Assembly: GCA_030704615.1 (NCBI GenBank)
Contig: CM060731.1
Location: 81,964,001 to 82,028,000, forward strand
Length of the DNA stretch: 64,000 bases
Source of the DNA: Takakia lepidozioides
Lineage: Eukaryota > Plantae > Bryophyta
Reading direction: 5' to 3'
Positions 18,302 to 47,067 of the stretch are shown piece after piece; the first letter of the stretch is position 1; each line of letters begins with the position of its first letter. The position numbers were made by a program, and so were the translations under genes. The notes beneath the pieces were generated by a model. The model saw nothing but the letters and a program-made list of their open reading frames with translations, made no database searches and had not been told where the DNA came from.

Positions 18302-18741
18302 TGCCCATGACTCTACACATCCACAGACACAAGAAAGCCAAAAGATTAATTCAGAGGAACCAAGTTTTCTTCTAATGTAAAATCTCCTAGTTGGGGTTAC
18401 CTCCACATCCTTCAAAATGGTTCGACTAAAATTAAACTGAGTTATTGACAAACACATAGCTGCAGACACCCTTCCCTGTCCACAATAATGCTGGGCACAA
18501 AGAACAAAATCAGGGATCATACATAGAGAGATCCGTACCTGAGTTGGGTCTGCCTAATGCTCAAGTAGCACAAATACATATTTCTAAACAGATAAAAAAT
18601 TTGGTATATCTAGGTGTTTAGAGACAAGCTAGAAAGCATCCATGATCCAGGCAATTCGAAAATGATAGAATTGAAGAGGTAGCATGCAGAGACACAATAC
18701 AGATCCTGTTGCACTCCACGAAAAACACAGTAAGCAGATTG

Positions 18742-24740: not shown

Positions 24741-25000
24741 GTTTGCCTTAGTGGAAGTGGTGTTGGCAGCTTTCATTACGTCCTTCAGTGTCCCGCCAAA
24801 CTGTGCCAGAAGCCCTTCCCAAAAGGCTGCTAGCATGGGAGACATCTATTGGTCTGACGGAACCTTTTGGAAGTCCTCGGGCTCCGTCCCCTCAAATTCC
24901 TCCCGCTCTCGAGCGACCTCACTATCAGAAGCATAAATTGCCTCGTCCAGTGGCCACTCCGGTGACACGTTGCTCCCACCGGGCTCACCAGGATCATCAT
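24741..25000 (-). pseudogene. gag: gag 5' remnant of a chromovirus (same family as 40799-41200), interrupted by the DNMT element
   Basis: DDPGEPGG...AFWEGLLAQFGGTLKDVMKAAN matches ORF 40799. It continues at 37761-37850. Confidence 0.85.
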
Positions 25001-25190
25001 TGTCGTGCGCATACATATCGCTACACAACTACATCGCTGTCCAAAACCACACAACACATGTGCACACCACACACTAGTATACCACTAGTCTACCACTAGT
25101 CCAGCCACTAGTCCAACCACTAGGCTACAACTAGTCAGTCACTAGGCTGCCACTACGCTGCCCACTATGGCAGTCACTAGTCCACACAAT
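25001..25190 (-). repeat. Repeat B2 (190 bp; 3' terminus of the element)
   Basis: Identical to 25518-25707. Rich in CCACTAG(T) motifs. Ends in CA on the minus strand. Confidence 0.95.
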
Positions 25191-25515
25191 GATAAAGAAG
25201 AAGAATACAAGCACAAGCTCATGCGAGCTCACAAAGCTGAAGCATAAACTCATGCATATATAACCTCATCACTCAAATACAAGTCAAGCCAAGTGCACCC
25301 CACGCCATGGGAATCCACACTACGGCGCCATAGCTAGGCGCGGTGAGGCTCAACTCGAGAAAGATGAGCCTCCCGCGCTTGCCGTGAAGATAACCACTCC
25401 AGGGCCTAAATCTGCCTTGACCCCTGGATTGACACTTGGGCCAATCCCAAATGTCAATATGTAAAAGCTAGCTATTTCCTAGCTAGTTTCACACTAGTGG
25501 TAAAATAACTTGACA
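25191..25515 (-). repeat. Repeat A2 (325 bp)
   Basis: Matches 37434-37760 apart from 1 substitution and 2 homopolymer indels. Confidence 0.95.
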
Positions 25516-25517
25516 GC

Positions 25518-25707
25518 TGTCGTGCGCATACATATCGCTACACAACTACATCGCTGTCCAAAACCACACAACACATGTGCACACCACACACTAGTATACC
25601 ACTAGTCTACCACTAGTCCAGCCACTAGTCCAACCACTAGGCTACAACTAGTCAGTCACTAGGCTGCCACTACGCTGCCCACTATGGCAGTCACTAGTCC
25701 ACACAAT
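25518..25707 (-). repeat. Repeat B1 (190 bp), preceded by a PPT-like AGGGGGCG
   Basis: Identical to 25001-25190. Purine tract at 25708-25715 on the minus strand. Confidence 0.95.
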
Positions 25708-25964
25708 CGCCCCCTAGCTGGTGCTTAGGTCCCTCTAAGTCCAGGTAGCCACAAGATGTGATAGTGACCATAGCCTCACTAAGTCCTCCACCACTATCCC
25801 TACTACACTCAAACTCGATAGATCAAGAGGCCGGGTGCAAGAGTTGCCCCATCGTTAGTCGCCGTCTTGCAACCTGTGAACTTGAGCTTGGGATCTCATG
25901 TATTGACTCCTATGAGCTTGGCCTCCCATGTCTTGTTAGCTGCCTCCAGTCATGTCCACTGCCA

Positions 25965-28900: not shown

Positions 28901-29040
28901 GATCTCTTGACCCTTCAGTGCTCCCAAGTCCTTCAAACTGAAGGCAAAAGCAATTCCTGTAAGCCCTCAGGAACCGCCGTATACGTCGTCTCTCTCCTCC
29001 GGTGACAATGGGTCCAATGTCAGGCTCCCAATTGTCCTCC
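25965..29040 (-). CDS. pol: pol region: RT - RNase H - DDE integrase - C-terminal PHD finger (broken by single-base frameshifts as assembled)
   Basis: RT: RMCGDYRPVN, FSTLDLRSGYHQL, LPFGLKNAPAEFQR, YIDD. RNase H: LHTDWS, YEGECLAAVWAVAHFRCYL, VTDHQPL, DADGLSR. Integrase: HEELGH...CMVC, SLDFAG, LTDQGREF, GLAER. PHD: CMLC...CDRC(SRGW)HMGC...WLCPHC, stop at 25965-25967. Confidence 0.93.
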
Positions 29041-29399
29041 GTAACTACAACCTTAAGTCCAGTGGGCTTAGAGGTAGAGGACGCGTCCCGTGGTTGCTAT
29101 GCTGCAACCTCTTGAGCAGTACTCCCTCCTGCTCAGTCAATGACAAGGCATCATCCTGCCCCATCATCTCATCCTTGAGGACCTCCTCAACTCGAGAAGA
29201 ATCCCCAACCTCATCCATCACAGCCGCCTTGGCTGCCAACTCCCTCTGAACCTCGAGCACCTCCCACGTGTGCCATGGATGCATGCACCCCGTGGTCCTC
29301 ATATGCTCGCCCCCACTCACTGCCTGTACCGTCTCGGTAGGCAGAGAGACCATTGAGGGAAGTGTATTCCGCACTCTGCGTTGCTCAGCTAGAGCCAAG

Positions 29400-30345
29400 C
29401 TGATAATCCAGGTCAAGCAATTGAGATCCATTGCTTGCCCCAACACTTGACGACGTGATGCCTCAGAAAGAGACGACACCGCCGTGGTACCAGTGGTAAA
29501 ACCCATTGCCCGCTCACGCTCGTCAGCATTAGGCTCCACTAACTGCTGCAACTGAGCATCCCACAGGAGGCCAGGTCCACTATCCCGGAAAGCATGCGAT
29601 CCTGGGAAGCTGAGCAGTGTAGGTAATGCTGCTCGTGGTTGACCCACCTTGTTGACCACTGCCAAAGGCGAACGGTCATCGTGTCTCACACGTTGAGACT
29701 GCCTCCCTGTGTCCAGAATGTTATCCACTGTGAGATGTGCTGGCCGCTGCACCCCATCAAATGCACGCTTGAGCAGTGCGGGTGGCATCATGTTAGTCCA
29801 CCATAGCCGTGGACGATGAGCCCGTGACCCCACTGTAGCTGCATCTAGCAACACTGCTGACCCAAGCCACGACCGGACTTGATGCACACTGGCCATCACC
29901 CTGGCCCGAGAATCGCCCATCAGTGGCACATTCTCCAAGATGTATGCTGGAGATACAGCTTGATGAAGCTGCAAGTGGCGCAAAACCCGCACCATCTCCC
30001 AAAACAGACCCGACCTCGAGTCTCGCAATCCATTGCCATGCCCGGCTGATGAATGCCCTTGGCAGGGCCAACCTGCCACTACCAGATCAATGGAGCCAAC
30101 CCGCTCCAAATCCTGCGCCCCCAGCAACGAAATGTCTGCTGGCAAGGCCTGCTGATATCCACGAATTGCAGACACCGACAACAACTCAGGGTACCGCTGC
30201 ACCAACTGAGCAACATGGCGAAGTGAAACGCGTCGTGCAGTCTCATCCCTCTCCACATACAGGTAACGCCGAACTCGTACACCTGCCTGTAACACAGCAG
30301 CCAATCCGGTGCTGATCCCGCCAAACAAGTCCAGAAGACAAATGC
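29400..30345 (-). CDS. C5 cytosine DNA methyltransferase domain (DNMT3-like, non-permuted) within ORF 29045-31429
   Basis: Motif I LLDLFGGISTG; II YVERD; IV DLVVAGWPCQG (catalytic Cys); V SGLFWE; VI ILENV; VIII DAATVGSRAHRPRLWWTN; IX ERERAMGF; X RRQVLGQAM. The frame is uninterrupted. Confidence 0.95.
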
Positions 30346-30739
30346 CTTCATCCGGAGACTGCCACACAATAGGTGTGGTGTCCAATGGAGACAATTGAGG
30401 TGGTCCTGGTGCAATCCCCACACTCTCCTCCTCTCCTGACGGTACAAAAGCCTCCACCCAGGCTTGTTGCACCCGTCGATCAGCATCCCGCTGCAAATCC
30501 TTGCTCGTGCCCCACAATGGAGTCTGAGCAACCATGGTAGGCAACTCCGCCATACCATACATGTCATCCTGCTCTCCCGGAGGTGGTACATCCTCTGAAT
30601 GAGCATTGCCCTCAAGCAACTCTCTAGGCCAACTCACTGCCGCTGTGAATGCTGCTAGTGTCGGCATCTTGCCTCGCTGGGCAACCGCAACTCCTCCTAT
30701 GAACGTCACAGGGAGCTGCACACGCCGGCCCTCCCCTGA

Positions 30740-31080
30740 CTGCCATGCAGGCCTATAGGAAGCTGACTCCTCCCAAAAATCCAGGGTGAAGCCCATGGGG
30801 TACAACACTGCCCCACCAACCAGGACATCGTATGAGACTGCGTCTGTCACAATGGCCTTGGCTCGCATCACTGAGCCATCTGTAGGGTGATCCGGCCGTA
30901 GTCTGATAGCCAACTCATGCCGTGTCATGCCCCGAGCCTGCTCCGATCCTCCCAGAGACGTCTGTATCTGGAAAGGACAAGGCTCCATATCCGCCTCCGT
31001 GAGGCCCAAGCCTGCAATAGCAGCTCTGCCCAGCATCAGTGGCTGAGCTCCCGAGTCCAACAAGACTCGCAGTGGCCGGT
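30740..31080 (-). CDS. Retroviral-type aspartic protease domain, in the same ORF as and upstream of the DNMT
   Basis: VLLDSGAQPL active site and YDVLVGG C-terminal motif. Confidence 0.85.
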
Positions 31081-31419
31081 ACCTCTTGCCTGCCGGTCCA
31101 CTCAAACAGAAAATGCCATCCTGGTTGTCTAACATGACAACTCCAGGTGTCACCATGGCGCGCTCAATGGCTGGCCTAGCTGGCAGCTCCATCAACCTGG
31201 CAGCTGCAGCTTGCCATGGCGCCGCCGTGGCAGTCTTGACCCTCAAATCCGAGGATCCCTCCGGCACTACACCTCCCACTATCTCCGCAGAAGATGAAGT
31301 AACCTCCCCACTCTCACAGAGTGTAGCTGCCAGCCTGAACACCTCAGCTGGTCTTATCCCCGGCGTCGCAATCATGGTAGCCGAGAACAATGGAGCCTGG
31401 CACACAGATGTGGCCGCTC

Positions 31420-33267
31420 CTAGCAGCACACTAGCTGCCGTAGCCTTGGCAACACTAGGTAGTGGTGCTGCCCGTGTAGCTCTCCCAATGGCATAGTAAC
31501 CTCCGCCTCGGTAATAGTCGGGCGAGAACTAGGTGCCATGGATGGCGTCGACACTGTCTCCGCCAATGTGAATGACTGAGGAAGCCTAGCCTGACGGCTT
31601 GCCTCCCCACGCTGTGGATCCAACTCCACCTCTGCACCTCGTGGCTCAGGAACTCGTGCTGCTCCTCGAGTCACGGCTGCAGCAGACTCCACCTGCACTA
31701 GTGGTAGTGCTGCTCCACACATGAATCCCATGCCTCCCATATCTCCTCCCTCAGGAGCAGGAGGTGGACCATCCGGCCTTAGAGCCGGTACCACCTGAGC
31801 TGTAGCCATGGCAGCGAGCCTCTGCTCTAGCTGCTGAAGCCGGTTGGCCATGCCTTGGTCAACACCCTGACCTCCGCGTCCTTGGCCACGTTGAGCTTGC
31901 CCTTGGCCTGCACCTCGTGGCTGGCCACCTCGTCCTCTCTGGGCTGCTCCACCTCGCCCCCGGCCACCATTGTTCCCTTGGAACTGGCCTGGGCGCAACT
32001 CAGGATGCAAACCATAACACTGGGCCTCTCCATGCCCGTGCTTGCCACAATGCCCACACTGCAACTGTGCAGGCTGTGCATGTGCCGACCCTTTGCCTCC
32101 CTCTGGGCAATCCTTCTTGACATGGGGTCCTCCACATGTCCAGCACACCACATCCGCCCGTTGTTGGCCAGCAAATGAAGGGAGAGACCCCTGCATCTGA
32201 GGTCCTCTCTGCCCTTCCCTGAGCTTCACCTGAGCCCCCTTGTTGCCTTGAGCACGTTGAGGTAGTGGTTGGCTAGGAGCACCACTACCCCGTGGTGTCT
32301 CCTTAGCAAATCCCACCATGACCACTCGTTCCTCCACCATGTTGAGCTCTATCCGCTCTGCCAGCAAAAACACATTTGCTAAGGTGGGTTGGGCCGCTTG
32401 TAGGAGAGTTGCATCCCGCACCCTTCTCCTCAGCTCCTTGTCCAATATCCCATACCAGAATTGGACTGCCTGAGCTTCCGTAACCCCTTGGGTTACATTT
32501 ATCAAGCGCCTCATGCGAGTGAAAGCCTCCCTCAAGCTCTCGGTCGGCTTCCGTTGGAACTCTTGCAAGCTCCGCAACTTCTCTGTCCTCACCCCTTGGT
32601 AGTTCCCTCTCAACTCTTCGAAGAACTCCACAACAGGGTTGAAGGCAGGCACGGGTGCTAGTGCTGGTGCGGTAGTGGCTTGGGTGGACGTCGTAGCTAC
32701 TGTACCACCAGTCCCACTGCTACTTGCTGAAGCTGCCGGTGCAGCGGCAGGTGTAGCCACTGCCCTCGTGGCTCTAGTGCCCCTAGTGATGGAGACATAG
32801 TCGGGTGACCAGTACATCCTCCACTCCTCGATCTCAACCTCATGCCCCCGCCTGAACTCATGGTAATCATCCATAGGCGGCCCCTCAAGGTGCTGAAACA
32901 GCCCTTTCCATGCCATGAACGGCGTAAATAGTTGTGGATTGCGCATTTGCTGCAAATCACACCAACTATCAAACTCTTGGATAAAATCATCCAACTCAAT
33001 GGTGCCCACCGCCCCAGAGTACCTTCGTGGCCCCTTGGTAGCTCCATACATCTCCTCCATTGTGTCCCACAACAATGGCAAAGAAACAACTTGCACCGCC
33101 GGTATGAGCCCTCCTGATTCACAATCCGAATCAGAACCTTCCGTGGAAGACACAGGAGGTGAAGGTGGCCTAAACCGCACACCTCGTCTCGTGTACCCAC
33201 TAGTATCGCTAGTGCTCGAACCGGCACTGTCCCCAGCAACTAGTGGCACCTCCGTGTTGACACTCAA
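31420..33267 (-). CDS. gag: Gag with two CCHC zinc knuckles (first in-frame ATG at 33060)
   Basis: LDDFIQEFDSW, FQRKPTESLREAFTRM (MHR-like), CWTCGGPHVKKDC and CGHCGKHGHGEAQC, followed by an RGG-rich region. Confidence 0.88.
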   Translation of the reverse strand: MSVNTEVPLVAGDSAGSSTSDTSGYTRRGVRFRPPSPPVSSTEGSDSDCESGGLIPAVQVVSLPLLWDTMEEMYGATKGPRRYSGAVGTIELDDFIQEFDSWCDLQQMRNPQLFTPFMAWKGLFQHLEGPPMDDYHEFRRGHEVEIEEWRMYWSPDYVSITRGTRATRAVATPAAAPAASASSSGTGGTVATTSTQATTAPALAPVPAFNPVVEFFEELRGNYQGVRTEKLRSLQEFQRKPTESLREAFTRMRRLINVTQGVTEAQAVQFWYGILDKELRRRVRDATLLQAAQPTLANVFLLAERIELNMVEERVVMVGFAKETPRGSGAPSQPLPQRAQGNKGAQVKLREGQRGPQMQGSLPSFAGQQRADVVCWTCGGPHVKKDCPEGGKGSAHAQPAQLQCGHCGKHGHGEAQCYGLHPELRPGQFQGNNGGRGRGGAAQRGRGGQPRGAGQGQAQRGQGRGGQGVDQGMANRLQQLEQRLAAMATAQVVPALRPDGPPPAPEGGDMGGMGFMCGAALPLVQVESAAAVTRGAARVPEPRGAEVELDPQRGEASRQARLPQSFTLAETVSTPSMAPSSRPTITEAEVTMPLGELHGQHHYLVLPRLRQLVCC

Positions 33268-33539
33268 CCGGTCATGAACATGTCCCTAACCCCCTCTCCA
33301 CAAGGTAACCGGGTAGAGAACCTGTTGCGGCTTATGGTTTGGAATACTAAGTTCCTAACATAGCCTACACCTGAACTTGCATGACCATGGGAATATCATG
33401 AAGATACTCCTCAAACCGCCCTCCACGAGCTTCAAAATTCGGCCTTCCAGACCACATGCCAGTCCTTAGTCCACCAGTGCCTCCACGAGTCAGCACAGGC
33501 CATCCACAGGTCAACACGGGCCACCACAGACCAGCACAG

Positions 33540-35900
33540 GCCCACACAGCTCACTGGTCACAGCCGTCACAGTCCCACAGGCCACTGGGCACAGCCTGTC
33601 ACAGCCCCTCACAGCGTCACAGCCCAAAGGCCTCAGGCACGGCCTGTCACAGCCCCTCACAGCCCGTCACAGCCCCAAAGGCCTCAGCACGGCCTGTCAC
33701 AGCCCCTCACAGCCCGTCACAGCCTCAAAGGCCTCAGGCACGGCCTGTCACAGCCCCTCACAGCCCTCACAGCCCAAAGGCCTCAGGCACGGCCTGTCAC
33801 AGCCCTCACAGCCCGTCACAGATTCCAAAGGCCATGGGCACGGCCTGTCACAGCCCCTCACAGCCGTCACAGCCCCAAGGCTCAGGCACGGCGTCACAGC
33901 CCCTCACAGCCGTCACAGCCCCAAGGCGATGGCACGCCTGTCACAGCTCCTCACAGCCGTCCAGCTCACAGGGCACAGGCACAGCCGTCACAGCCCATCA
34001 CAGCCCCAAAGGCCTCAGGCACGGCCTGTCACAGCCCCTCACGCCGTCACAGCCCCAAAGGCCTCAGGCACGGCCTGTCACAGCCCCTCACAGCCCATCA
34101 CAGCCCCAAAGGCCATGGGCACGGCCTGTCACAGCCCCTCACAGCCCGTCACAGCCCCAAAGGCCTCAGGCACGGCCTGTCACAGCCCCTCACAGCCAGA
34201 CAGCCCAAAGGCCATGGGCACGACCTGTCACAGCTCCTCACAGCCCATCACAACCTCACAGGCCACAGGGCACAGCCCATCACAGCCCATTACAGCTGTC
34301 ACAGCTCACAGCCATCACAGCCCGTCACAGCCTCAAAGGCCTCAGGCACGGCCTGTCACAGCCCTCACAGCCCTCACAGCCCAAAGGCTCAGGCACGGCC
34401 TGTCACAGCCCCTCACAGCCCGTCACAGCCCCAAAGGCCCAGGCACGCCTGTCACAGCCCTCACAGCCCGTCACAGCCCCAAAGGCCATGGGCACGGCCT
34501 GTCACAGCCCCTCACAGCCCGTCACAGCCCCAAAGCCTCAGCACGGCCTGTCACAGCCTCACAGCCCTCACAGCCCCAAAGGCCTCAGGCACGGCTGTCA
34601 CAGCCCTCACAGCCGTCACAGCCCCAAAGGCCATGGGCACAGCCTGTCACAGCCCGCCACAACCCCACAGGCCTCAGGGCACAGCCTGTCACAGCCCCGC
34701 ACAGCCCGTCACAGCCCAAAGGCATGGGCACAGCCTGTCACAGCTGACACAGCCAGTCACAGCCACACAGGGCACAGGCACAGCCTGTCACAGCCATCAC
34801 AGCCCGTCACAGCCTCAAAGGCCTCAGGCACGGCCTGTCACAGCCCCTCAAGACCCTAACAGCCCGTCACAGCCCCAAAGGGCCAGGGCACGCCTGTCAC
34901 AGCCCTCACAGGCCCGTCACAGCCCCAAAGGCCCAGGCACGGCCTGTCACAGCCCCTCACAGCCCGTCACAGCCCAAAGGCCATGGGCACGACCTCAGCC
35001 CCTCACAGCCCGTCACACCTCAAGGCCTCAGGCACGGCCTGTCACAGCCCCTCACAGCCCCTCACAGCCCCAAAGGCCATGGGCACGGCCTGTCACAGCT
35101 CTCACAGCCGTCACAGCCTCACAGGGCACATGGCAAGCCTGTCACAGCCCATCAAGCCCATCACAGCCCGTCACAGCCTCAAAGGCCTCAGGCAGGCCTG
35201 TCACAGCCCCTCACAGCCCCTTCCAACGCTCAAGGCCTCAGGCACGGCCTTCACAGCCCCTCACAGCCCGTCACAGCCCCAAAGGCCAGGGGCACGGCCT
35301 GTCAAGCCATCACAGCCCGTCACAGCCCCAAAGGCATGGGCACAGCCTGTCACAGCCCCTCACAGCCCATCAAGCCTCAAGGCCTCAGGCACGGCCTATC
35401 ACAGCCCCTCACAGCCGTCACAGCCTCAAAGGCCTCAGGCACGGCCTGTCACAGCCCCTCACAGCCTGTCACAGCCCCAAAGGCAATGGGCACAGCCTGT
35501 CACAGCCGCACAAGCCCCAAGGCCTCAGGGCCAGCCGTCACAGCCCCGACAGCCCGTCACAGCCCCAAAGGCCACTGGGCACAGCTGTCACAGCCTGACA
35601 CAGCCCGTCACAGCCCCACAGGGCACAGGGCACAGCCTGTCACAGCCATCACAGCCCACTCACAGCCGCACAGCCCCACAGGCCAGAGGGCACAGCTGTC
35701 ACAGCCCGTCAACAGCCGTCACAGTTCCACAGGGCACAGGGCACAGCCTACAGCCCCACAGCCTGTCACAGCTTGCCACAGCCCATCACAGCCCGTCACA
35801 GCCCCACAGGGCACAGGGCACAGCCTGTCACAGCCCCTCACAGCCCCTCACAGCTCCTCATAGCCCGTCACAGCTTGCCACAGCCTGTTACAGCCCCACA
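33540..35900. repeat. About 2.4-kb minisatellite in the element leader; unit of about 50 bp (GGCCTCAGGCACGGCCTGTCACAGCCCCTCACAGCCCGTCACAGCCCCAAA) built from 10-bp TCACAGCCC subunits
   Basis: Read directly; dozens of variant units. Confidence 0.95.
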
Positions 35901-36329
35901 CATGGCCGCTCTGGCAGTTTAGCCATTTCTCCAAGGGGTTTAGCCACGCCAAGCTAGGGTTTGTGTCTCTTGGACTCTAGGCTTCTTTCCACCGAGCTAT
36001 GGTGGCTGTGAGGAAATCAGCAAGGTATCCTTGCTCTTTCGGCTCCCACACACCACCATAGTAGCCCTAAGCCATGAGGTGGTTGCCACAAACCAAGCCT
36101 TCTTTCTCACTTAGCCTCCCCAAACACGCCACTAAACTCAATGGCAAACAACCAAGCCCTGCTGGTTCCCAGCCCTTGTGAGCACTCATTCAAGCATTCT
36201 CATTGGCCATAGCATCTGTCTTAGAGCCTATTCCAGCCCTCTACACCTGTTGCTTCAAGAGTTGCGCTCCCTTCAAGCTTGAAGTTGAAACCCCAACTCA
36301 CATAGGCCCTACAAGTGCTTTTCTTTCAC

Positions 36330-36760
36330 TCCAAGTGGAAACCAGCCCTAGACCTTCCGTTCTAGCTCTCTAAGGCTTGAAAACAAGAGCCTCAATGGGC
36401 TGAAGGCATGCTCCACACATGCCCCACTCTCACCATAAGAGAATCAGCTCCTTTGCTTCATTTCTTGCACCCACAAACCTGAAAATACAAGCTTCAGCAG
36501 GCTGAAAGCATGCTCTACATGCCCTACAGGGAAACCAGCCCCTTCCTTCCTTCCTTGCACTCCCACACCTAAAAGTGCAAGCCTTCACCAGGCTGATAGC
36601 ATGCTCCACACATACATTGCCCTCACATAAGGGAAGTCAGCCCTTCCCTCTTCCTTGCTTGCCCTCCAAGCTTGAAGATGGAAGCTTCAATGAGCTGAAT
36701 ACATGCTCCACACATGCAACCTCTTCACACAAGAGATATCAGCCCCCTATCTTGGCTCCT
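36330..36760. repeat. Degenerate tandem repeat with a period of about 95-100 bp (GCTGA..GCATGCTCCACACATGC...CAGCCC)
   Basis: The core recurs at about 36399, 36501, 36591 and 36693. Confidence 0.65.
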
Positions 36761-37433
36761 TGGCTCCTTGATGCTCTCTAAGACAAGACTAAGCACTCCA
36801 CAGCCTTTGCCAAGCTCCTAAAACCCTAAGGCTTACATTTCCAGCCACAAGACACTTCTCTTGTGGTGCAAGAGCTCTTCTTCCAAGCTCTGAAACCCTA
36901 GGTGCACATTCCATGGCCTTGCCGCACCTCTTAGCTCCTGTTCCAGCCCTGCTCTTGCCATGACAAGAGCCCTCTCAATGCTGAAGCTCGAGATTGAAAC
37001 CCAATCTCACCATACTCCACAAAGTGCACTGATTTGCCCCAAGCAAAATCAGCCCTTTCGCTTGGTCTTGCAATCCTTCACACAATGAAAGCTCGCATTC
37101 CCAAGTCCAGTTCTCAGCTTTGCCACCAAAGCCACTATAACCTGCTCTTGACTGGTCCTCTTCCCAATCGTGCTTGCTCATGCATGTACACAATCTGAAA
37201 CCATCAAGGTGCTCTGGAATTACCTGCAGCATGGTGCTTTCATCTCTGAAGCTGAAGATCGAATGCCAAGGTCTACCACCTCGTAACCCACATCGCCTCC
37301 GCTTCTAACAACCAAGAGCTCCACGGTGCTCCTTGCATAACAACTTGGTTTCTCTCATTCTCAAGCAAAAACCACAAGTGCTACAACTAACTCGTATCTG
37401 GCACTCACAGATACGAGCTGATCTTTCTCGAGT

Positions 37434-37760
37434 GATAAAGAAGAAGAATACAAGCACAAGCTCATGCGAGCTCACAAAGCTGAAGCATAAACTCATGCAT
37501 ATATAACCTCATCACTCAAATACAAGTCAAGCCAAGTGCACCCCACGCCATGGGGAATCCACACTACGGCGCCATAGCTAGGCGCGGTGAGGCTCAACTC
37601 GAGAAAGATGAGCCTCCCGCGCTTGCCGTGAAGATAACCACTCCAGGGCCTAAATCTGCCTTGACCCCTGGATTGACACTTGGGCCAATCCCAAATGTCA
37701 ATATGTAAAAGATAGCTATTTCCTAGCTAGTTTCACACTAGTGGTAAAAATAACTTGACA
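37434..37760 (-). repeat. Repeat A1 (5' terminus of the element; starts TGTCAAG)
   Basis: About 99% identical to A2. Abuts the TSD and is not followed by a B repeat. Confidence 0.95.
37499..37506 (-). promoter_or_regulatory. Putative TATA box of the DNMT element
   Basis: TTATATAT on the minus strand about 65 bp before the end of A1, in a U3-like position. Confidence 0.45.
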
Positions 37761-37890
37761 TCATCTTTCAGGCCGTTCCGCTTTCGTGTTGTCTTGCTAG
37801 ACCCTATGATAAGGCCAATCTCAAGAACGATCGCAGACTGAACTCCAAGGTCTGATACCAAGTATCGCGCACCTCCCTTCGGCCCAGTTA
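37761..37890 (-). mobile_element. Host chromovirus remnant: LTR end, tRNA-iMet PBS and gag start
   Basis: Minus-strand GAGGTGCGCGATA-CT-TGGTATCAGA matches 40731-40755. Confidence 0.85.
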
Positions 37891-38029
37891 TCAACGTCAC
37901 ATCTGTCCGTCAGCGTTAGGTCATCTTAGACCTGATGCTGACAGGACCTCCATCACGTCAGGTTCGAGGAATATTCTGGTAAAAATAGTACCAGGTAAAA
38001 TACTGCCACTTAAGCAGTCACGTCGCCGA

Positions 38030-38960
38030 CACGGTGGCGGTGGCAAATACATTTTGAAAATTAAATGACACGGTGGCGATCGTTTTGTTTTTCGAAATTA
38101 AAAAAGAAATAGCGACCACCGTATAGGCGCTCGCTTCAATTTTTATTTTTTTTTAAACAAGATTGGCGGTCGCACTGGCGGACGCTTTATTTTTCGAAAT
38201 GAAAAAAGAAATATCGACCACCATATTGGCAGTCGCTTCAATTTATTTTTAAACAAAAGCAAGATTAACGCATTGGCGGTCGCCTAATGTTTTTTTAAAA
38301 ACAAGCGACTGCCGTATTGGCGGTCGCACAATTTTGCAAATATATACAAAACAAGCGACCGCCATATGGCGGTCGGATAATTTCAAATAAAAATAAAAAA
38401 ACAAGCGACCGCCATTTGGCGGTCACTTAATTTCAAAAATATATAGAAAAACAAGCGACCACCATATGGCAGTCAGTATATTTTTATGACATAGAAAAAT
38501 AAAAGCGACCGCCACACCGGTGGTCGCTTATTTTAAAATAATATAATATTTGCGACCGCCAAACTGGCGGTCGCTTAATTTAATAATATATTAAAATAAA
38601 AGCGACCACCAGCCTGACCGTCGCTAAAACTTGAAAATATAAAGATTAAAAGTGATCGCCTTACTGGCGGTCGCGTTTTTTTAAAGATATTAAGAATAAA
38701 AGCGACCACCATATTGGCGGTCGCTTTATTTAAATATATAAACAAATGAAGCGACCGCCATACCGGCGGTCGCATTTATTTTGAATTAAAAAAAATAGCG
38801 ACCGCCATAATGGGGCGGTCGCTTAAATTTAAAAATATACAAAATAGAAGTGACCACAATATTGCACAAAATGAAAAGAAATAAAAGCGACCGCAATAGT
38901 GGCGGTCGTTTTTTTCCATAAAAAATAAAAAATAGTGACCGCAATATTAGCGGTCGCTTA
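38030..38960. repeat. Array of about 18 palindromes (AAGCGACCGCC-N4-6-GGCGGTCGCTT) at about 50-bp period with A/T-tract spacers; probably a DNA-transposon subterminal region
   Basis: Units at about 38111, 38213, 38303, 38353, 38403, 38453, 38503, 38551, 38599, 38650, 38700, 38749, 38797, 38885 and 38933. Confidence 0.85.
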
Positions 38961-39394
38961 ATTTCAAAATTATAACAAATATGGTTGTATATGGTTGTAT
39001 AGTTTTCGGGGGGGGGGCTATTGGTTCATCATTTATTCATTTCACTTTCATTTCACTTTCATCCTTTCTGGATCATATATAAGGGAGCAAGGTCACCAAG
39101 CTTTTCACTTCTTTTGGCGCAAACACTTGAGGTTGCTTAGGATGTTCTCTTCCATTGAACGAGAGTGTAGCCCAAGAGGAGGGTGCACACCTTTTGCCAT
39201 TGTGGCTTCCATCAAAGCTACTTCAGCAGATTGTGCATAAGCTCAACACTACAACCCACATCGACCCACTTGGGTTGCTGACAGGTGTAGAAGTGTTGGG
39301 CTATCACATTGCACTCTATATTCACAACACGTTCATTTATAGGCGACTGTTTTTTGTTGCTTACATCACTAGGGCCCAGGGGAGTGGATATTGG

Positions 39395-40013: not shown

Positions 40014-43000
40014 ATGTGTCGCGGCCCTTCGCCTTGAGGGCAGGGGATCGGGACACAAAAGGGGCTGCCCCTGTGGTGGGGGTAGTGGCAACAATAGATA
40101 CGGGGGCTGAAGCACCTTTGAATGCCCAAGGCACTCAAGGAGGCAGAGGCGCTCACTAGGTGGAACCCCGCACACGGGGTTGCGGTGGGGGTGGTTCCAC
40201 GAGGGATGGTGGTAGCTTAGTGGGATTTAGTGGGGGTGGCATAGGACTCACCATGGGGCGGAGACCTTTGTGGTGGGAATCGTGGGGAGTCTTGGGACTC
40301 ATCACGGTCCAATGGGGCCGTGGTGGGTAGGCCAAGACTCACCGCGACTCACCACCGGGAATGGAGGGTCTTCGTGGTGGTTCGTCATAAAAGGACAGTG
40401 TTGTTTGTGAAACCCCCGCGGACAGTCACAGAAGTATATATAGGAGTAGTAAGTAACTGAGAACGGTGCAAGCCCATTTGTGACCAAAAACTAGTGAGTA
40501 AGCGTGCGAGCCGGAAAACGACCAAGGTGTGGGGAGCTGTTCTGGACTGCCAACAACCAAAGGGAATTTCCACTAGGCCCAAATTGAGAGAGGGTCTTGT
40601 GGAAGAGCAAAAGGGGACCGTTATATCCCGGTGAGCAGCCGAAGCTTCGAGTTGGCCCGGCGGCCAGTTTGGGAGTTAGGCGCGCAGATCAAAGCGAATA
40701 ACTATAACTTAAAGGGGAGCTTACCGAAGTGAGGTGCGCGACACTTGGTATCAGAGCTTAGAGTTTAGTACGCGATCGTCCTTGAGATCGGCCTCATCAT
40801 GGGGTCGGGCAAGCCAAAGCGAAAGCGGAACGGCCCGAAAGATGATGATCCTGGTGAACCCGGTGGAGGCGACATGTCACCGAAGAGGCAATTTGAAGAG
40901 ACGATTCATGCTTTTGAAAGCGAGGCCACTCAAGAACGGGAGGAATCTGGGGAGTTAGAGCTCGAGGACTTCCCGGAGGCTCCGGCAGACCAACAGATGC
41001 CTCCCATGCCAGCAGCCTTTTGGGAAGGGTTGTTGGCGCAGTTTGGCGGGACGTTGAAAGACGTGTTGAGGGCGGCTAATGTCATTTCCACGAAGGCAAA
41101 GTTTAAGGTGAAGCCTAAGGAACCCGACACCTTCGAGGGCATCCAAAATCGGAAGGCACTCAACACGTGGCTCTTGGAGCTAAAGCAGTACTTCCGCGCG
41201 CCTTCAAGCATCATGGACTCCCGAAGGATATTGTCTCGGACTGCGATCCAAAGTTTAGAAGTAAATTTTGGAGGGCACATTTGGAAGAAGATGGGGACGA
41301 GACTCAAGATGAGTACGGCCTTCCGACCTACGACGGACGGCCAAACGGAAAGAGTGAATTCCATGGTGAAGCAGATCTTGCGGAATTATGTATTGGCAGA
41401 CCATCAAGACTGGGTTGGGGGTGGAAGGTGGAACATTTGGAAATGCCGGGGGGGGGGGCAGAGTTTGTTATAATAACACAAAACACGCTGCCAACGGGAA
41501 GGGGAGTTTCCTCTTTCGTATTGGTCAGGGAAAAGCACCTCCGGTGCCGACGACAAGTTGGGCCGCCCAAGGATGTTGAGGAACCGGCCGTAGTAGTTAG
41601 CAGCGGTGCTGGAAGAACACGAGCGTTTGTTGGAGCTTGCAAAATACAACATTGCCAAGCCAGGAAGGGGAAACGTATGAACGGCAGACGAATCAGAGCG
41701 GAAGGAAGAGGGAAGCTAAGTTTGAGGCGGGTACGGAGGTCTGGTTGAACATTAAGAATTTTCGACTACCTTCGGAAGCGAGTCCGAAGTTCGTACCTCC
41801 GTATGCGGGGCCCTTTCGCATACGGAAGGTTATGAATGAGGAGTGTGTATGAATGGAGCTGACGGCAAACAAAAACAAGGTGCATCGGGTAATTCACGTA
41901 TCTCCCCTTTTGCAGCCTTACTTCAAAGATGAAGCGCGTCCGAATCGGCATTAAATGTTGCGTCCCGCCACCTGTGACTGTTGGATCATGAAAAATGAAC
42001 CGGGAGAGTACGATGGTGGAGTGGTGGAGGCAGGAGTGCTTAAGTCGAGGAGGTTCAAGAATCGAGAAAGGAGTAAGGATCTCGTGAAATGGGAAGGGCT
42101 CTATCATGGAGGCAACTTGGGTGCGTGCCTCAGAGAAATGGGGAAACGCATCCGAGGAGGCAGTTGAAGCTTTCGAAGGGCGACCTCAAAAGCGGGGAAG
42201 AAGCGTTGATGGGGCATCAAACCTTGGATCGTGGGGAGGAAAATGCATGCTTAGGCCGGCTTGCTTAGCTCAAGGAGGAATCGATTTGCAAAAAACTTAT
42301 GTTGTACAAATTTTGTTATAAATGAAATGGTTCCAAATGTTGTGTGTCTTCTTATTTTGTTTGGAATGGTGATGCATTGGTTATGGTTGGCTAGTGTGTA
42401 GAATGCATGCTAGCTTACAAAAATGGGAGAGGTAAATTGGGATTAATCGTGTGTTGCGCAGTGCCGAAATCGGGTGACTCCCATCCAAGGGGCAAGGAAA
42501 CTTGCGCCCTTCTTTGGGGAGTTCACGTGCTAGTGCGCACCTGCGCGCGTGCGCGTAGTATAACTGCGCTACCGAGGGGGTTGCCTTGTAGTGCAGGCTA
42601 ACACGAAAGCTACGTGGTTCCGTTCACGTACTATAATCATGTAGCCTCGGGACGAAAAGTCGTAGTGTGGCTTCGGCGTGTTCCCGTACCTCAGGCCAGC
42701 ATTCCAAGGCGGACCCAATTGTAGTGATTTGGGCGCACGGTCAGTTCAAGGTTATCTTCCTAGTCAAAAAAAGGGTTCAAGGTGAACCATTGCTCAAGGT
42801 GATGCCAAAAGCGACATCATGAGTGGTCGCAAACAATGTTGTTGCAGTAAGGTGATTTGATCCTCGGGGAGGATCGTTCCTTGGCCTGAAGTGGGCCAAG
42901 AAGAGTGCACTGGGTGGAGCTTGAGAGCTCCACCTTGGCCGGGGACTTAGAAGAAGCCGGCCGCCGAACTAGCTAGTGGAGAGCTGATCAAGTGGGGGGG

Positions 43001-43658: not shown

Positions 43659-46600
43659 CGAAGTAAAGTCGCCCCGTCTCCTGCGTCGTTGTCGTCTCCT
43701 TGGTGGGGATGAAATGGCCTATTTTACTAAACCTATCCACCACCACCATGATTGCATCGAATCTTTTTGACAGCGGCATAGCAGTCATGAAATCCATCGA
43801 GACACTTTCCCAAGACCCCTCTGGAATCGACAAGGGTTGTAACAGCCCCGCTTGCTTTTTGTACTCGCTCCAGTTTTGTTGGCATGTGGTGCATGTCTTG
43901 ACATACTCTTCGGCCTCCCCCCTCAGTTTAGGCTAGAAATACTCTTTCTTCAAGAGTGCCGCGGTGCGCTTGGCTCCACCGTGGCCCGCAAGCAGGCCAT
44001 CGTGGCATTCCCTCAAGAGACTATCTCTGATCCCTCCCTTCGGCACGTAGAGGCGCTTTTGCTTGTACCGGAGCAATCCATTGTGCAAGTGGAACTGCGA
44101 TTTAACTCACATCCTCAAGTCCCGCATCACGGACTTCGCCATCTCATCCTTACGGTAAGCCTTCCGGATCTTCCTTTGGAGCGTCGTCTCGCCCTTGTAC
44201 ACCAACATAAGCAGCTGCTTTCTACTTAAAGCATCGGCCACCACATTGTCCCGTCCCGGTTTGTACTGGATATCCACGTCAAACACCGTCAAAGTGTCTT
44301 GCCACCTAAGTTGTTTTGGGGGCAACTTAGGTTGCGTGGCAAAATACTTTACCGTGACATTGTCCGTGAACACCTTTACCGGGTTGGAACCAACATAGTG
44401 GCGCCAAAGCTCAAGGCAATGCACCACTGCCTTCATTTCTTTCTCATGCGTAGGCCACCGTCGCTCCACTTCATTCAGTTTCTTACTTTCATAAGTCACG
44501 GGACGTCCATCCTGCACACCCCCAATTGCAAAGTCCGACGCATCTGTATGAATCTCAAATGGACGGTCGAAACTCGGGATTTTCAGCACTGGAGCTTCCG
44601 CCATCCGCTGCTTCAACTCGACAAAGGCTTGGCCACAAAAGGTGTTCCATACCCATATCTTGGACTTACATAGAAGGTCTGACAGCGGCCCGTGATCTTG
44701 GCAAAATTTCTTACATACTTTCGGTAATAGGAGGCGAGTCCTACGAAGGTTCGCACTCCCGGGACCAAAGTCGGAGGCTCCCAGTCCAAGATCGCTCTCA
44801 CTTTTTTGTCATCCATTTTGATCCCATCCTGTGTAATCACATGCCCTAGGAATTCCACTTTTGTGACCCCGAATTTGCACTTTGAAGCTTTGGCGTATAG
44901 CTTCCCTTCCCCTGGAACCCCATTTTGAGGTGCTCTAGGTGCTCTTCCTTCGTTTTCGAGTACACCAAGATGTCGTCGATGTCACAAAGTCATCCAACCA
45001 CTCCTGGAAAAGGCCGTTCATTAACGTGCGAAAGGTCGCGGGTGCGTTGGTGAGCCCAAAAGGCATCACCAAGAACTCATATGAACCATATCTTGTTCTG
45101 CACACGGTCTTCTCCTCATCTCCTTCTGCCATTCGGATTTGATGGTAGCCGGAGCGCAAATTGATCCGGCTGAAATACTTCGCTCCTGCCAATCGATTGA
45201 AGAGGTCGTCGATCCTTGGCAAAGGGTACCGGTTTTTTATAGTCACCTTATTTAGAGCCCTGTAATCGACACACATCTGCAGCGTCCCATCTTTCTTGTC
45301 GGCGAATAGCACCGGGGCTCCATAAGGTGACTTATTTGGCCGGATGTACCCCTTTGACATTAGATCCTTGAGCTGAGCCTTCAGCTCGACCAACTCTCTG
45401 TGGCTCAACTAAGTTCAATAAAATAGATATGGGTATAGATATTTCATTTGATGACTTCATTTCATTATTACATATTGATACGAGTCCCTACTGCAACAGC
45501 TCCTACTGCAACGATTCCTCTTCAACAGATTACGAGAGAACCAAAGATTAGCATGCCCGAGAAATTTGATGGGACGAGATCAAGATTTCGCGGTTTTGTT
45601 CAACAAGTACGACTGTTCCTACGACTACATCCACAACAGCTCCGTTCCCGGTATCACCTCAATTTTGTGGTCAACTCCTCTTCGCGGTAGCAAGCCGCTT
45701 GGTAAATCCTCCGGCATCACATCCTTGTATTTTTCCAGGATCCCTTTGATCCAGTCTGGGCTAGGCTCCCTATCGTCTTCTCCTTCCACTTGTCTTACGT
45801 AAAACAAAAACTGGGGCTCGTGTGGCTCCTCCGTGGCCCACTCCTTTGCTGACAGCAGGTTTATTTGCCCTCCCACTGGGTTGGGCGTTTCCGACACCCG
45901 TAACACTTTGCCACCATTCCCACACAGTAGCGTGACTATTCTCTTGTGGCCATCTATGACCGCTCCGGATTTGCTCAAAAAGGTCATCCCCAAAATGAGA
46001 TCCACTCCATCGATCTCGCAAATGGTGAAGTTCTCACATCCCTCCCAACTCCCGAGCTGAAGAGGAACATCGAATGCCAACCTCGTCGCCAATTGTGGTT
46101 CTCCTTTAGCCGAACGCACTTCAATGGAGGCCCCCACATCACTTGTCGGGAGCCCCAGCTTCCGTGCCGTTGCCAGTGTCATGAAGGAGTGCGACGCTCC
46201 TGTGTCCACCAACAACGATACGGTAGTTCCGGAACTTATCCCGCTCACGAACATTAACTGACTCCCTTTTCGCAAGGGGCCAGTCTCCTGATACAACTCA
46301 CAAGAGTAGTTGCCTACCTTGCAAGTCTTGGCGACCACCGCTTCCACCAAGCGGCTAATGGAATCTTCGGACAGCTCCGTGGTCGCCCGAGTTATGTTCA
46401 ATTGACGGGGCTTCGCGCACTTCTTAGCCATGTGCCCGAGCTCCCCACAATTAAAGAACACCCCATCAAAGGTCGCCTTCTGTCCACCATAAGCCGTCGC
46501 ACCTGATTTTCCTTTCGGAGCACCGAGTGCCGCATTGACGTGTGAAGGCCCTCCCTTCGATTTCCATGTGCCATTGTCGCCGCGTGGCCTATCCCACTTC

Positions 46601-47067
46601 TTTTCTGGTCGGAATGCGTCACCCTCTCGCCGAGTCTTTTTGTGGTTCAGCTCCGTACGGCCTTTTCTTTCGCCCCTAGGGACATCTAAGAAACATTCAG
46701 CCCTTTCAATTGCCTCGTTCAAAGTCTTAGGTGGCTTCTCCTCCAACTTCCGCCTGGCCCATGGGGCCAGTCCCGCCACAAAGTTGAAGACATTTCTGGT
46801 TCCGCCATATCCGCGACTTCGAGCAACAGCACATTGAAAGCCTGAACATATCCCCGAATGTCGTCCGTTTGCTTCAAATTCCTCATCTTGTCCCAGGCGA
46901 GCCAGGACGCGTTGTGGGGCACAAACTGTCTTTTCATAAGTTCCTTGAACCCACTCCAGCTCAAGGTTTCTGGGTTTGGACCTTGGTCATGAAGGCGTTT
47001 CTGCCACCATTATTGAGCATAGCCCCTCAAATAGGTTGGAGCCACTTCCACCCGATCCTCGTCACTC
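43659..47067 (-). pseudogene. pol: Inverted gag-PR-RT-RH-IN(N-terminal) core of the chromovirus, lying inside its 3' LTR
   Basis: gag SWSGFKELMKRQF, zinc knuckle [35 protein letters not shown] and [12 protein letters not shown], RNase H HTDASDFAIG, integrase WESVSMDF...VVDRFSK. Many frameshifts. Confidence 0.88.
45410..45637 (+). mobile_element. Filler fragment from a different Ty3/Gypsy gag
   Basis: REPKISMPEKFDGTRSRFRGFVQQVRLFLRLHP. It replaces about 7 codons between protease and RT of the host core. Confidence 0.7.

What the first reader, a model, noticed from the sequence alone, without database searches (positions are those of the whole stretch)
37417..37433. No tRNA PBS: the PBS position is complementary to the loop of a hairpin in repeat A (candidate self-priming or RNA circularisation signal)
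Seen: directly after A1 the coding strand reads ACTCGAGAAAGATCAGC rather than TGG.... It is complementary (16 of 17, the first 13 perfect) to a site in repeat A (37597-37613; 25353-25369 in A2). That site is the 12-nt loop of a 14-bp stem with one bulge (25338-25352 / 25365-25378). A perfect 10-bp hairpin follows (37391-37400 / 37408-37417). If transcription starts after the TATA at about 37500, only the A2 copy near the RNA 3' end is available, and its paired 3' end would abut the A1 boundary where a primer should sit. Known: Tf1-type Ty3 elements self-prime and DIRS elements use an internal complementary region. Inference: a new tRNA-independent priming route, which would argue that the split repeats are functional.
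Basis: partly seen in the sequence, partly recalled or inferred. Interest (0 to 1): 0.78.

Follow-up and report, generated by a model that had tools for sequence, protein, structure and literature searches.

The report
Self-priming signal in split-repeat retrotransposon
This plant-type jumping gene has no tRNA primer site; the spot where one belongs is complementary to a stretch in its own terminal repeat and stays so as both change across relatives, so the element likely primes its copying with the first 13–17 bases of its own RNA, as the yeast element Tf1 does, rather than with the RNA's tail.

Summary
In a Ty3/gypsy element with split repeats (A1–genes–B1–A2–B2, 4-bp target duplication), the primer-site position (37417-37433, minus strand) is complementary to 37597-37613 in A: 16 of 17 here, and 17 of 17 in most sequencing depth of this family. 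Relatives 68–74% identical in RT keep the pairing with other letters: 8 of 13 pairs change on both sides, against 1–4 in slid controls. So priming without tRNA is very likely.

Their TATA is in 1 of 13 copies. A TATA word sits 28–30 nt before the complementary site in 10 of 13, though not in this one. Folding pairs the two sites when the RNA starts at the site; in this copy 10 or more upstream bases mask it in a hairpin, as in A2. This is Tf1-type 5'-end self-priming, a known mechanism. I found no paper reporting it in this lineage, whose split repeats were drawn once in Klebsormidium. It implies that the true LTR is B+A and that insertion likely uses an internal palindrome. No RNA start site was measured. 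The scan noted this lineage before on other DNA.

The parts
37417..37433 (-). Primer-binding site (not tRNA-type); its first base is the last base of the LTR's terminal CA
   Evidence: covariation; no variant at 5% or more in 37421-37433, and 37420 is mostly the matching base
37597..37613 (-). Likely self-primer = predicted 5' end of the RNA (core 37597-37609; start inferred at 37609-37613)
   Evidence: complementarity; TATA spacing in relatives; folding; start site not measured (one search gave no test)
37582..37622 (-). Hairpin around the primer site (arms 37609-37622 and 37582-37596); predicted to mask it when upstream bases are in the RNA
   Evidence: (-30.3 kcal/mol against -22.4 to -28.8 for the primer:PBS duplex)
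25338..25378 (-). Same hairpin in A2 with the second copy of the site (25353-25369), predicted masked
37632..37637 (-). Position where relatives carry a TATA word; here a non-canonical TTATCT, 28 nt before 37609
37500..37505 (-).
37391..37417 (-). Perfect 10-bp leader hairpin right after the PBS; the paired positions 37400 and 37408 both vary at comparable depth
   Evidence: phase not known
37433..37760 (-). Repeat A1, 328 bp, TG...CA (inferred distal U3, R and U5)
33500..35900 (.). Tandem array of about 10/50-nt units in the leader
31420..33285 (-). gag-like ORF
   Evidence: weak PF03732 hit (E 0.003); zinc-knuckle-like motifs in the translation
29045..31528 (-). ORF with an aspartyl-protease-like motif and a DNMT3-like C5 methyltransferase
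   Evidence: PF00145; best solved relatives DNMT3A, E 1.5e-9; protease motif by eye, PF13975 in relative P0053
25930..28966 (-). RT, RNase H, DDE integrase and C-terminal PHD finger, broken over several frames in this copy
   Evidence: PHD and no chromodomain in intact relatives P0002 and P0053
25707..25715 (-). Purine-rich tract (likely PPT) directly before B1
   Evidence: G-run at the same place in relatives
25518..25706 (-). Repeat B1 (inferred proximal U3)
   Evidence: identical to B2
25512..25521 (.). Palindrome GACAGCTGTC at the B|A joint; its halves are the outer ends of the inserted element
25190..25515 (-). Repeat A2, 326 bp, 99% identical to A1
25001..25189 (-). Repeat B2, ending in CA
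24997..25000 (.). 4-bp target-site duplication, downstream copy
   Evidence: empty-site paralog at about 40724-41100
37761..37764 (.). 4-bp target-site duplication, upstream copy

Best explanation
The site at 37417-37433 is complementary to 37597-37613 of the element's own terminal repeat, and it is likely the primer-binding site of a Tf1-type self-primed retrotransposon whose RNA likely starts at 37609-37613. SHOWN: the complementarity, its compensatory change across relatives, the TATA spacing in relatives, the split repeats and the 4-bp target duplications. INFERRED: (1) The first 13–17 nt of the RNA fold back onto the PBS about 165 nt downstream. (2) As in Tf1, RNase H would cut just after the paired stretch (after 37597) and give RT a 3'-OH at the LTR boundary. 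(3) In the 3' copy (A2) the upstream U3 arm closes a hairpin over the same sequence, which likely keeps it from competing for the PBS. (4) With primer and PPT at these places, ordinary LTR replication would give a cDNA with LTR = B+A at both ends. The inserted form A–genes–B–A–B would then arise when the cDNA ends are joined and integrase opens the palindrome inside one LTR. Step 4 is less certain (about 0.6) than steps 1–2.
For: Beyond chance: 2 of 20,000 shuffles. Covariation on 13 copies: 91.7% of 169 cells paired, 8 of 13 pairs with a change on both sides, 0 of 500 column shuffles as high, slid controls 31–46% paired with 1–4 such pairs. These copies are only three lineages (window; L004 and L088; ten family-1 copies), so cells are not independent events. 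Swap test on 5 copies: own partner 12–13 of 13 pairs, other lineage 5–11; even the close pair L004/L088 differs at two primer positions with both compensated. A fourth lineage (L037) has a different sequence again: 13 Watson-Crick pairs and one G-U with one bulge, read by eye, and a TATA word 29 nt upstream. A TATA word lies 28–30 nt before primer base 1 in 10 of 13 copies. When the RNA starts 0–6 nt before base 1, 10 of 13 copies reach pairing probability 0.5 or more; with 60 upstream nt, 7 of those 10 fall to 0.00, the window copy already at 10 nt. Primer-to-PBS distance is 159–173 nt. Within the host family no variant at 5% or more falls in 37597-37613 or 37421-37433. The site meets the operational self-primer test of PMC6317226. 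Tf1's first 11 bases pair with the PBS and RNase H cuts between bases 11 and 12 (PMC7175516 passage).
Against: No start site was measured. The window family lacks a canonical TATA at the predicted place (TTATCT) and has a TATATA 91 nt downstream of the primer site. Masking by upstream sequence is not universal: L012, L020 and L046 stay paired with 60–100 upstream nt, L057 pairs better with them, and L007 and L035 never pair. Complementarity runs to 16 nt in L004, 17 in the host majority allele and up to 21–22 in family 1, longer than a TATA+29 start predicts. The two flanking helices of the Tf1 'pretzel' were not better than shuffles in the window (70 of 300 and 41 of 300 as good). In the window copy the predicted pairing is only 0.57–0.66.
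Confidence: 0.8

Rival explanations
1. One reading: transcription starts after the TATA near 37500, so only the A2 copy near the RNA 3' end can pair with the PBS. It primes from there or circularises the RNA.
For: The window does have a TATATA at 37500-37505 and no canonical TATA upstream of the site. Complementarity in family 1 reaches 21–22 nt, more than a 5' primer needs, and 3 of 10 pairing copies stay paired with upstream sequence present.
Against: That TATA is in 1 of 13 copies. In A2 context the site is mostly paired in a -30 kcal/mol hairpin, and co-folding gives 0.00, 0.00 and 0.30. By inference, an RNA that starts at about 37470 and ends at 25353 would hold the stretch 37596-37471 at neither end, so A could not be rebuilt; if the RNA ran further, a cut at 25353 would separate the strand-transfer acceptor from the template.
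Confidence: 0.08
2. The pairing acts on DNA, like the internal complementary region of DIRS elements: single-stranded cDNA ends anneal here to close a circle, and priming happens some other way.
For: The repeat layout is the A–genes–B–A–B pattern of tyrosine-recombinase elements (PMC5890265 Fig. 1 and Fig. 4 legends), and a circular intermediate is plausible here.
Against: The match is 13–17 nt to a mid-repeat site, not to the element ends. It sits exactly at the LTR boundary where a primer belongs and tracks a TATA at fixed spacing. No tyrosine recombinase was found in 16 element ORFs scanned; a DDE integrase, a PPT and 4-bp duplications are present.
Confidence: 0.05
3. A host tRNA or tRNA fragment primes here, and the cis match is secondary.
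For: Half-tRNA priming exists in bryophyte and algal Ty1/copia lineages (PMC6317226). Host tRNAs could not be searched: no genome is held and there is no tRNA gene in the window.
Against: No TGG follows the LTR end in 13 of 13 copies. At least four different PBS sequences each match their own LTR, which would need several different tRNA fragments plus matching LTR changes. PMC6317226 found half-tRNA use only in Ty1/copia.
Confidence: 0.04
4. The match is chance or the relic of a small inverted duplication, with no function.
For: Element RNA and LTRs are rich in inverted repeats (z -6 to -9), and a leader-wide scan finds several unrelated 10–13-nt matches.
Against: The position is fixed at the LTR end in all lineages and the changes are compensatory.
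Confidence: 0.02

Closest known systems
Tf1/Tf2 (Schizosaccharomyces pombe), Tj1, Tosmo1-3 and the Tf1/sushi group, including plant Tcn1
   Same: Ty3/gypsy domain order; no tRNA PBS; PBS next to the LTR's CA and complementary to a site inside the 5' LTR just downstream of a TATA (PMC4600332, 10.1101/2022.12.06.519325, PMC7175516, PMC6317226 passages).
   Different: PHD finger and no chromodomain; DNMT3-like domain; split repeats; 4-bp duplication (Tj1 has 5); duplex of 13–17 nt against 11; hairpin over the primer copy; flanking 'pretzel' helices not shown.
KnitGypsy-Dnmt3 of Klebsormidium nitens / streptophyte Gypsy-DNMT3 (de Mendoza et al. 2018, PMC5890265)
   Same: Gypsy pol with a DNMT3-like domain and a repeat structure 'the same as that of a DIRS retrotransposon' (Fig. 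4c legend).
   Different: That paper's main text has 0 occurrences of 'priming', 'primer binding' or 'PBS', and its 3 supplementary text files have 0 of 'priming' or 'PBS'; 'PHD' does not occur in the main text. No direct sequence comparison with KnitGypsy-Dnmt3 was possible.
TAR / Houba / Osr-1 Ty1/copia lineage
   Same: Predicted self-priming in plants outside the Tf1/sushi group (PMC6317226): a precedent for separate origins.
   Different: Copia domain order and ordinary LTRs.
Tyrosine-recombinase elements with A–genes–B–A–B repeats (SymbioDIRS-Dnmt3; PAT and Ngaro recalled)
   Same: Repeat layout (PMC5890265 Fig. 1 legend).
   Different: DDE integrase, PPT, PBS-position site and 4-bp duplication here; no recombinase found.
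Integrase cleavage of 2-LTR circle palindromes in foamy virus and HIV-1 (PMC1180852, PMC1905944, PMC4372172; search listing only)
   Same: An integrase cutting an internal palindromic end-to-end junction.
   Different: There it is the LTR–LTR end junction and, as I recall, a side route; here the palindrome lies inside the LTR and all inserted copies seen with an intact 5' end begin at it.

Membership tests
Tf1-type self-priming (works like) | Region starting 0–5 nt after the 5' LTR is complementary over 10 nt or more to a site in the 5' LTR (operational test of PMC6317226) | tested here: met
   12 nt from the base after CA, 13 with the A
Tf1-type self-priming (works like) | No tRNA-type TGG site after the LTR | tested here: met
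   0 of 13 copies
Tf1-type self-priming (works like) | The complementary site is the 5' end of the transcript | tested here: inconclusive
   TATA word 28–30 nt upstream in 10 of 13 copies, not in the window; 0 RNA reads laid in 3 raw runs, so no test
Tf1-type self-priming (works like) | Two further helices beside the primer duplex ('pretzel') | tested here: inconclusive
   Helices form in folds but are not better than shuffles: 70 of 300 and 41 of 300
Tf1-type self-priming (works like) | RNase H cuts the RNA to release the primer | not testable with these tools
   RNase H domain present; activity not testable
Tf1/sushi chromoviruses (member of) | Chromodomain at the integrase C-terminus | tested here: not met
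   PHD finger and no chromodomain in P0002 and P0053 and in the window's C-terminal frames by eye
Tf1/sushi chromoviruses (member of) | RT phylogeny inside the Tf1/sushi clade | tested here: inconclusive
   The window RT lies in a clade of 62 of 109 sequences (support 1.0) holding 27 of 28 PHD-labelled and all 7 C5-methyltransferase-labelled rows in the tree; no labelled Tf1, Tcn1 or sushi reference was available, midpoint root
Tf1/sushi chromoviruses (member of) | Two complete LTRs at the ends | tested here: not met
   A1...B1-A2-B2
Streptophyte Gypsy-DNMT3 (KnitGypsy-Dnmt3) | Gypsy pol (RT–RNase H–DDE integrase) | tested here: met
Streptophyte Gypsy-DNMT3 (KnitGypsy-Dnmt3) | DNMT3-related methyltransferase in pol | tested here: met
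   PF00145; best PDB hits DNMT3A, E 1.5e-9
Streptophyte Gypsy-DNMT3 (KnitGypsy-Dnmt3) | A–genes–B–A–B repeats | tested here: met
Streptophyte Gypsy-DNMT3 (KnitGypsy-Dnmt3) | Same clade as the Klebsormidium element | not tested
   No sequence labelled as that element was in hand; named clade members came from Calypogeia, Marchantia and Closterium
DIRS-order tyrosine-recombinase retrotransposons | Tyrosine recombinase instead of DDE integrase | tested here: not met
   rve integrase present; no recombinase hit in 16 element ORFs
DIRS-order tyrosine-recombinase retrotransposons | Internal complementary region matching the element ends (feature recalled) | tested here: not met
   The complement maps to mid-A, 147–163 nt inside the end; no long inverted repeat between an end and the interior

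The most novel reading that the evidence does not exclude
This is a green-plant Gypsy lineage, separate from the Tf1/sushi chromoviruses, that evolved 5'-end self-priming on its own, with a U3 hairpin that hides the 3' copy of the primer, and that no longer integrates from its cDNA ends. Because self-primed ends are ragged, the cDNA is end-joined, and the DDE integrase opens a conserved palindrome inside the 5' LTR as its normal route, which gives the permuted A–genes–B–A–B insertions.
Probability: 0.45. Interest if true: 0.75.

Novelty: new variant of a known kind. Interest (0 to 1): 0.55.

Why it matters
The priming mechanism itself is known (Tf1) and was predicted for 12% of plant elements in one survey (PMC6317226), so it is not a new route. 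What it adds is threefold. It places self-priming in a lineage without a chromodomain, possibly a further independent origin. It shows a conserved hairpin that likely hides the 3' copy of the primer. And it fixes where reverse transcription starts, which together with the PPT says that the real LTR is B+A and that the genomic copies are cut open in mid-LTR. That turns a layout noted once without explanation (PMC5890265) into a testable model of an LTR element that may integrate from a joined intermediate. LTR finders that demand two terminal LTRs would see only A1 and A2 and misplace the 3' end. The family is abundant in the host's DNA runs, so cDNA ends and circles may be mappable.

Tried and rejected
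RNA start and end sites: three raw RNA runs (X13, X17, X24; 1–2% of each read) laid 0 reads on 36950-37900, which is no test; X12 is contigs only and may be DNA. No RNA holder was listed. Host tRNA search: no genome held, no tRNA in the window, no Rfam match at E up to 1 in 36900-37900. The first alignment (A3) put a gap inside the primer and was not used; A4 was. Rows dropped before the counts: one search gave 18 rows; L008 and L015 repeat L007 and L012, the primer site is deleted in L026 and L031, and L052 is rearranged, which leaves 13. L027 and L028 are too decayed to score. L045 (46% RT identity) has only a 9-nt match at 287 nt and is inconclusive. L006 does not cover the site. Viral contigs gave 7 distant loci with no bearing. 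A recalled claim that Troyka or a lineage called 'Kakusei' has split repeats was not borne out: part 1 of 5 of PMC12440569 describes 3-bp duplications and CG ends only, and the second name gave 2 unrelated papers. The tree could not place the clade relative to Tf1/sushi. Literature searches: 0 papers; 2 papers name the lineage. None listed a paper on priming in Gypsy-DNMT3 elements. The library lacks most subscription journals and Repbase reports, and the supplement of bioRxiv 10.64898/2026.05.21.726589 and the figures of PMC5890265 were not seen.

Full report
OBSERVATION. The finding lies at the 5' end of a minus-strand retroelement spanning 25001-37760. The 17 nt at 37433-37417 are complementary to 37597-37613 (A1) and 25353-25369 (A2) at 16 of 17 positions, the first 13 perfectly. 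The 13-mer occurs nowhere else in the window, and 2 of 20,000 dinucleotide shuffles of A1 reach 13 nt. The first A of the site is the last base of the LTR's CA. The site covers the 12-nt loop plus 5 nt of the stem, and folding leaves only about 5 of its 17 nt open. In four DNA runs the family is highly repeated. 57–80% of summed contig depth has the base at 37420 that makes the match 17 of 17, and no variant at 5% or more is listed in 37421-37433 or 37597-37613 (three runs are one sample that may be the window's source).

THE ELEMENT. The order is A1 (328 bp, TG...CA), the site, a long leader with a tandem array, gag, an ORF with a C5 methyltransferase, RT, RNase H, DDE integrase and PHD finger (broken over several frames), a purine tract, B1, two bases, A2, B2. 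The methyltransferase's best solved relatives are DNMT3A. B1 and B2 are identical and A1 and A2 are 99% identical. An empty-site paralog at about 40724-41100 shows a 4-bp duplication outside A1's TG and B2's CA. The B|A joint is the palindrome GACAGCTGTC, whose halves are the element's outer ends. The nearest named RT hits are from Calypogeia and Marchantia, so the host is likely a bryophyte. De Mendoza et al. 2018 (PMC5890265; section 9 read whole, other passages and 3 supplementary text files searched) describe KnitGypsy-Dnmt3 with DIRS-like repeats and Gypsy domains, and do not discuss priming.

RELATIVES. I fetched 80 metagenome loci (the best 80 of 547), 7 viral loci and 1 genome-collection locus. 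The split layout recurs. Among 7 family-1 copies with both ends, 6 have an exact 4-bp duplication and 1 has 3 of 4. The palindrome is kept while the rest of the repeats diverges. One search gave 18 A–PBS rows; 5 were dropped (2 duplicates, 2 with the site deleted, 1 rearranged), leaving 13 from three lineages. The members measured (L004, L088, L009, L012) are 68–74% identical to the window's RT.

COVARIATION. On these 13 copies, 91.7% of 169 cells form pairs and 8 of 13 pairs change on both sides. 0 of 500 column shuffles reach this, and slid registers give 31–46% and 1–4 pairs. The count of further pair types was not above shuffles (131 of 500). Ten of the 13 are one family, so the real evidence is about ten independent double changes among five representatives (my reading of the pair table), with no uncompensated change in pairs 1–12 there. 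Each primer matches its own PBS at 12–13 of 13 and other lineages' at 5–11. L037, a fourth lineage, has yet another sequence with 13 Watson-Crick pairs, one G-U and one bulge (by eye). In a self-primed element the PBS would be partly recopied from the primer in every cycle, so such covariation is what priming predicts (inference). A tRNA primer would not predict it.

WHICH COPY PRIMES. That word is present in 1 of 13 copies. A TATA word lies 28–30 nt before base 1 of the 13-nt site in 10 of 13, and 29 nt before it in L037; it is absent in the window, L012 and L061. The window has TTATCT at that spacing. Folding shows a switch. With the RNA starting 0–6 nt before base 1, 10 of 13 copies pair primer with PBS at probability 0.5 or more. 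With 60 upstream nt, 7 of those 10 drop to 0.00; the window copy drops by 10 nt. Against this, L012, L020 and L046 stay paired, L057 behaves the other way, and L007 and L035 never pair. Local folds show a hairpin over or around the site in 18 of 18 relative copies examined, though weak in decayed ones (-6.9 to -21.2 kcal/mol). The simplest reading is that the RNA starts at the site. Complementarity extends to 16–17 nt in the window family and L004 and to 21–22 in family 1, so I give the start as 37609-37613 and leave a secondary 5'–3' pairing role open. RNA reads gave no test.

MECHANISM. Shown: complementarity, covariation, TATA spacing in relatives, repeats and duplications. Inferred from Tf1 (PMC7175516, PMC4600332 and 10.1101/2022.12.06.519325, passages only): the RNA 5' end folds onto the PBS and RNase H cuts after the duplex to release the primer. 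Tf1's two flanking helices were not demonstrable here. With the primer at the end of A and the PPT before B1, standard replication yields LTR = B+A at both ends. B1 and B2 share copy-specific letters in L057, as expected if both come from one template. Inserted copies begin and end at the internal palindrome, so integrase likely cuts there after the ends are joined. Tf1 cDNA has single-stranded primer sequences and untemplated bases at its ends (PMC11042837 passages), and a title in its reference list says the self-primer is not removed (paper not read). That offers a reason, untested, for moving the attachment sites inside. Unexplained: 0 of 13 5' A copies in family 1 are preceded by B, so the mirror product of a symmetric two-LTR circle was not seen, and 4 of the 7 copies with both ends have only A–genes–B. 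These may come from recombination, misassembly or a second integration product.

COMPARISON AND NOVELTY. It works like Tf1/sushi self-priming and meets the operational test of Neumann et al. 2019 (PMC6317226, passages), who predicted self-priming for 12% of plant elements (Tcn1 and TAR). It is not filed as a Tf1/sushi chromovirus: it has a PHD finger, no chromodomain and split repeats. A tree of 109 RT–RNase H sequences (11 of the 120 hits were left out for short coverage; the window RT and 108... see below) shows one well-supported clade of PHD and methyltransferase carriers but had no labelled Tf1 reference (the script kept 108 of 120 hits plus the window RT). It is not a DIRS-order element. 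It fits streptophyte Gypsy-DNMT3 on three tested features. Ten searches listed no paper on priming in that lineage; the library is incomplete. Earlier AI notes of this scan reached a similar reading on other DNA. I had formed my reading before seeing them and do not count them as support.

VERDICT. The feature is real and very likely functional. 5'-end self-priming 0.80; 3'-copy priming or circularisation 0.08; DNA-level annealing 0.05; tRNA 0.04; chance 0.02. New variant of a known kind; interest 0.55.

Noticed in passing
L009, L013, L020, L047 versus L012, L035, L057: Two inserted forms in one family: A–genes–B with a 4-bp duplication (4 of 7 copies with both ends) and A–genes–B–A–B (3 of 7). 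No A–B–A–genes–B mirror form among 13 5' ends.
   Followed up: partly
window 25190 and 25707; 37433: One base is shared at the A|B joint: it is the last base of A, the base after the G-run of the PPT, and the first base paired by the primer. It could be a 1-nt microhomology of end joining; the same holds in family 1.
   Followed up: partly
window 37400 and 37408: The two paired positions at the top of the 10-bp leader hairpin both vary at comparable depth in 4 of 4 runs, possibly a compensatory change; 37412 and 37413 vary without listed partners. Phase unknown.
   Followed up: no
window 37765-37900 and 24742-25000; paralog 40724-41100: The element sits inside another repeat, about 90 bp downstream of a TGG-type PBS-like site of that repeat; an uninterrupted inverted paralog lies 3 kb away.
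   Followed up: partly
window 38050-39000: Array of about 50-nt units, each with a short GC-rich inverted repeat and an AT-rich spacer; like a subterminal array of a DNA transposon, not tested.
   Followed up: no
window 33500-35900: 2.4-kb tandem array of 10/50-nt units in the leader, strongly strand-biased; most relatives have shorter leaders.
   Followed up: no
window 44107-46986: A second Ty3/gypsy element (zinc knuckle, protease, RNase H) on the minus strand.
   Followed up: no
window 11588-18553 and 1503-2171: Host genes: an ABCC-type transporter in few, long exons and a glycosyltransferase family 92 fragment.
   Followed up: no
L088 1-9285: A near-complete member of this plant retrotransposon lineage lies in a contig titled as a cyanobacterial genome assembly; likely plant DNA in the bin.
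   Followed up: no
proteins P0067, P0068, P0070: The sister group of the PHD and C5-methyltransferase clade includes elements with an adenine-methyltransferase Pfam (PF05869), one also with a PHD finger.
   Followed up: no
window 37551-37743 (run X12, record 5): A 707-nt contig holds only the first 200 nt of A and then different sequence; similar loose ends at 37524 and 37661 in DNA runs suggest subfamilies or non-autonomous derivatives.
   Followed up: no
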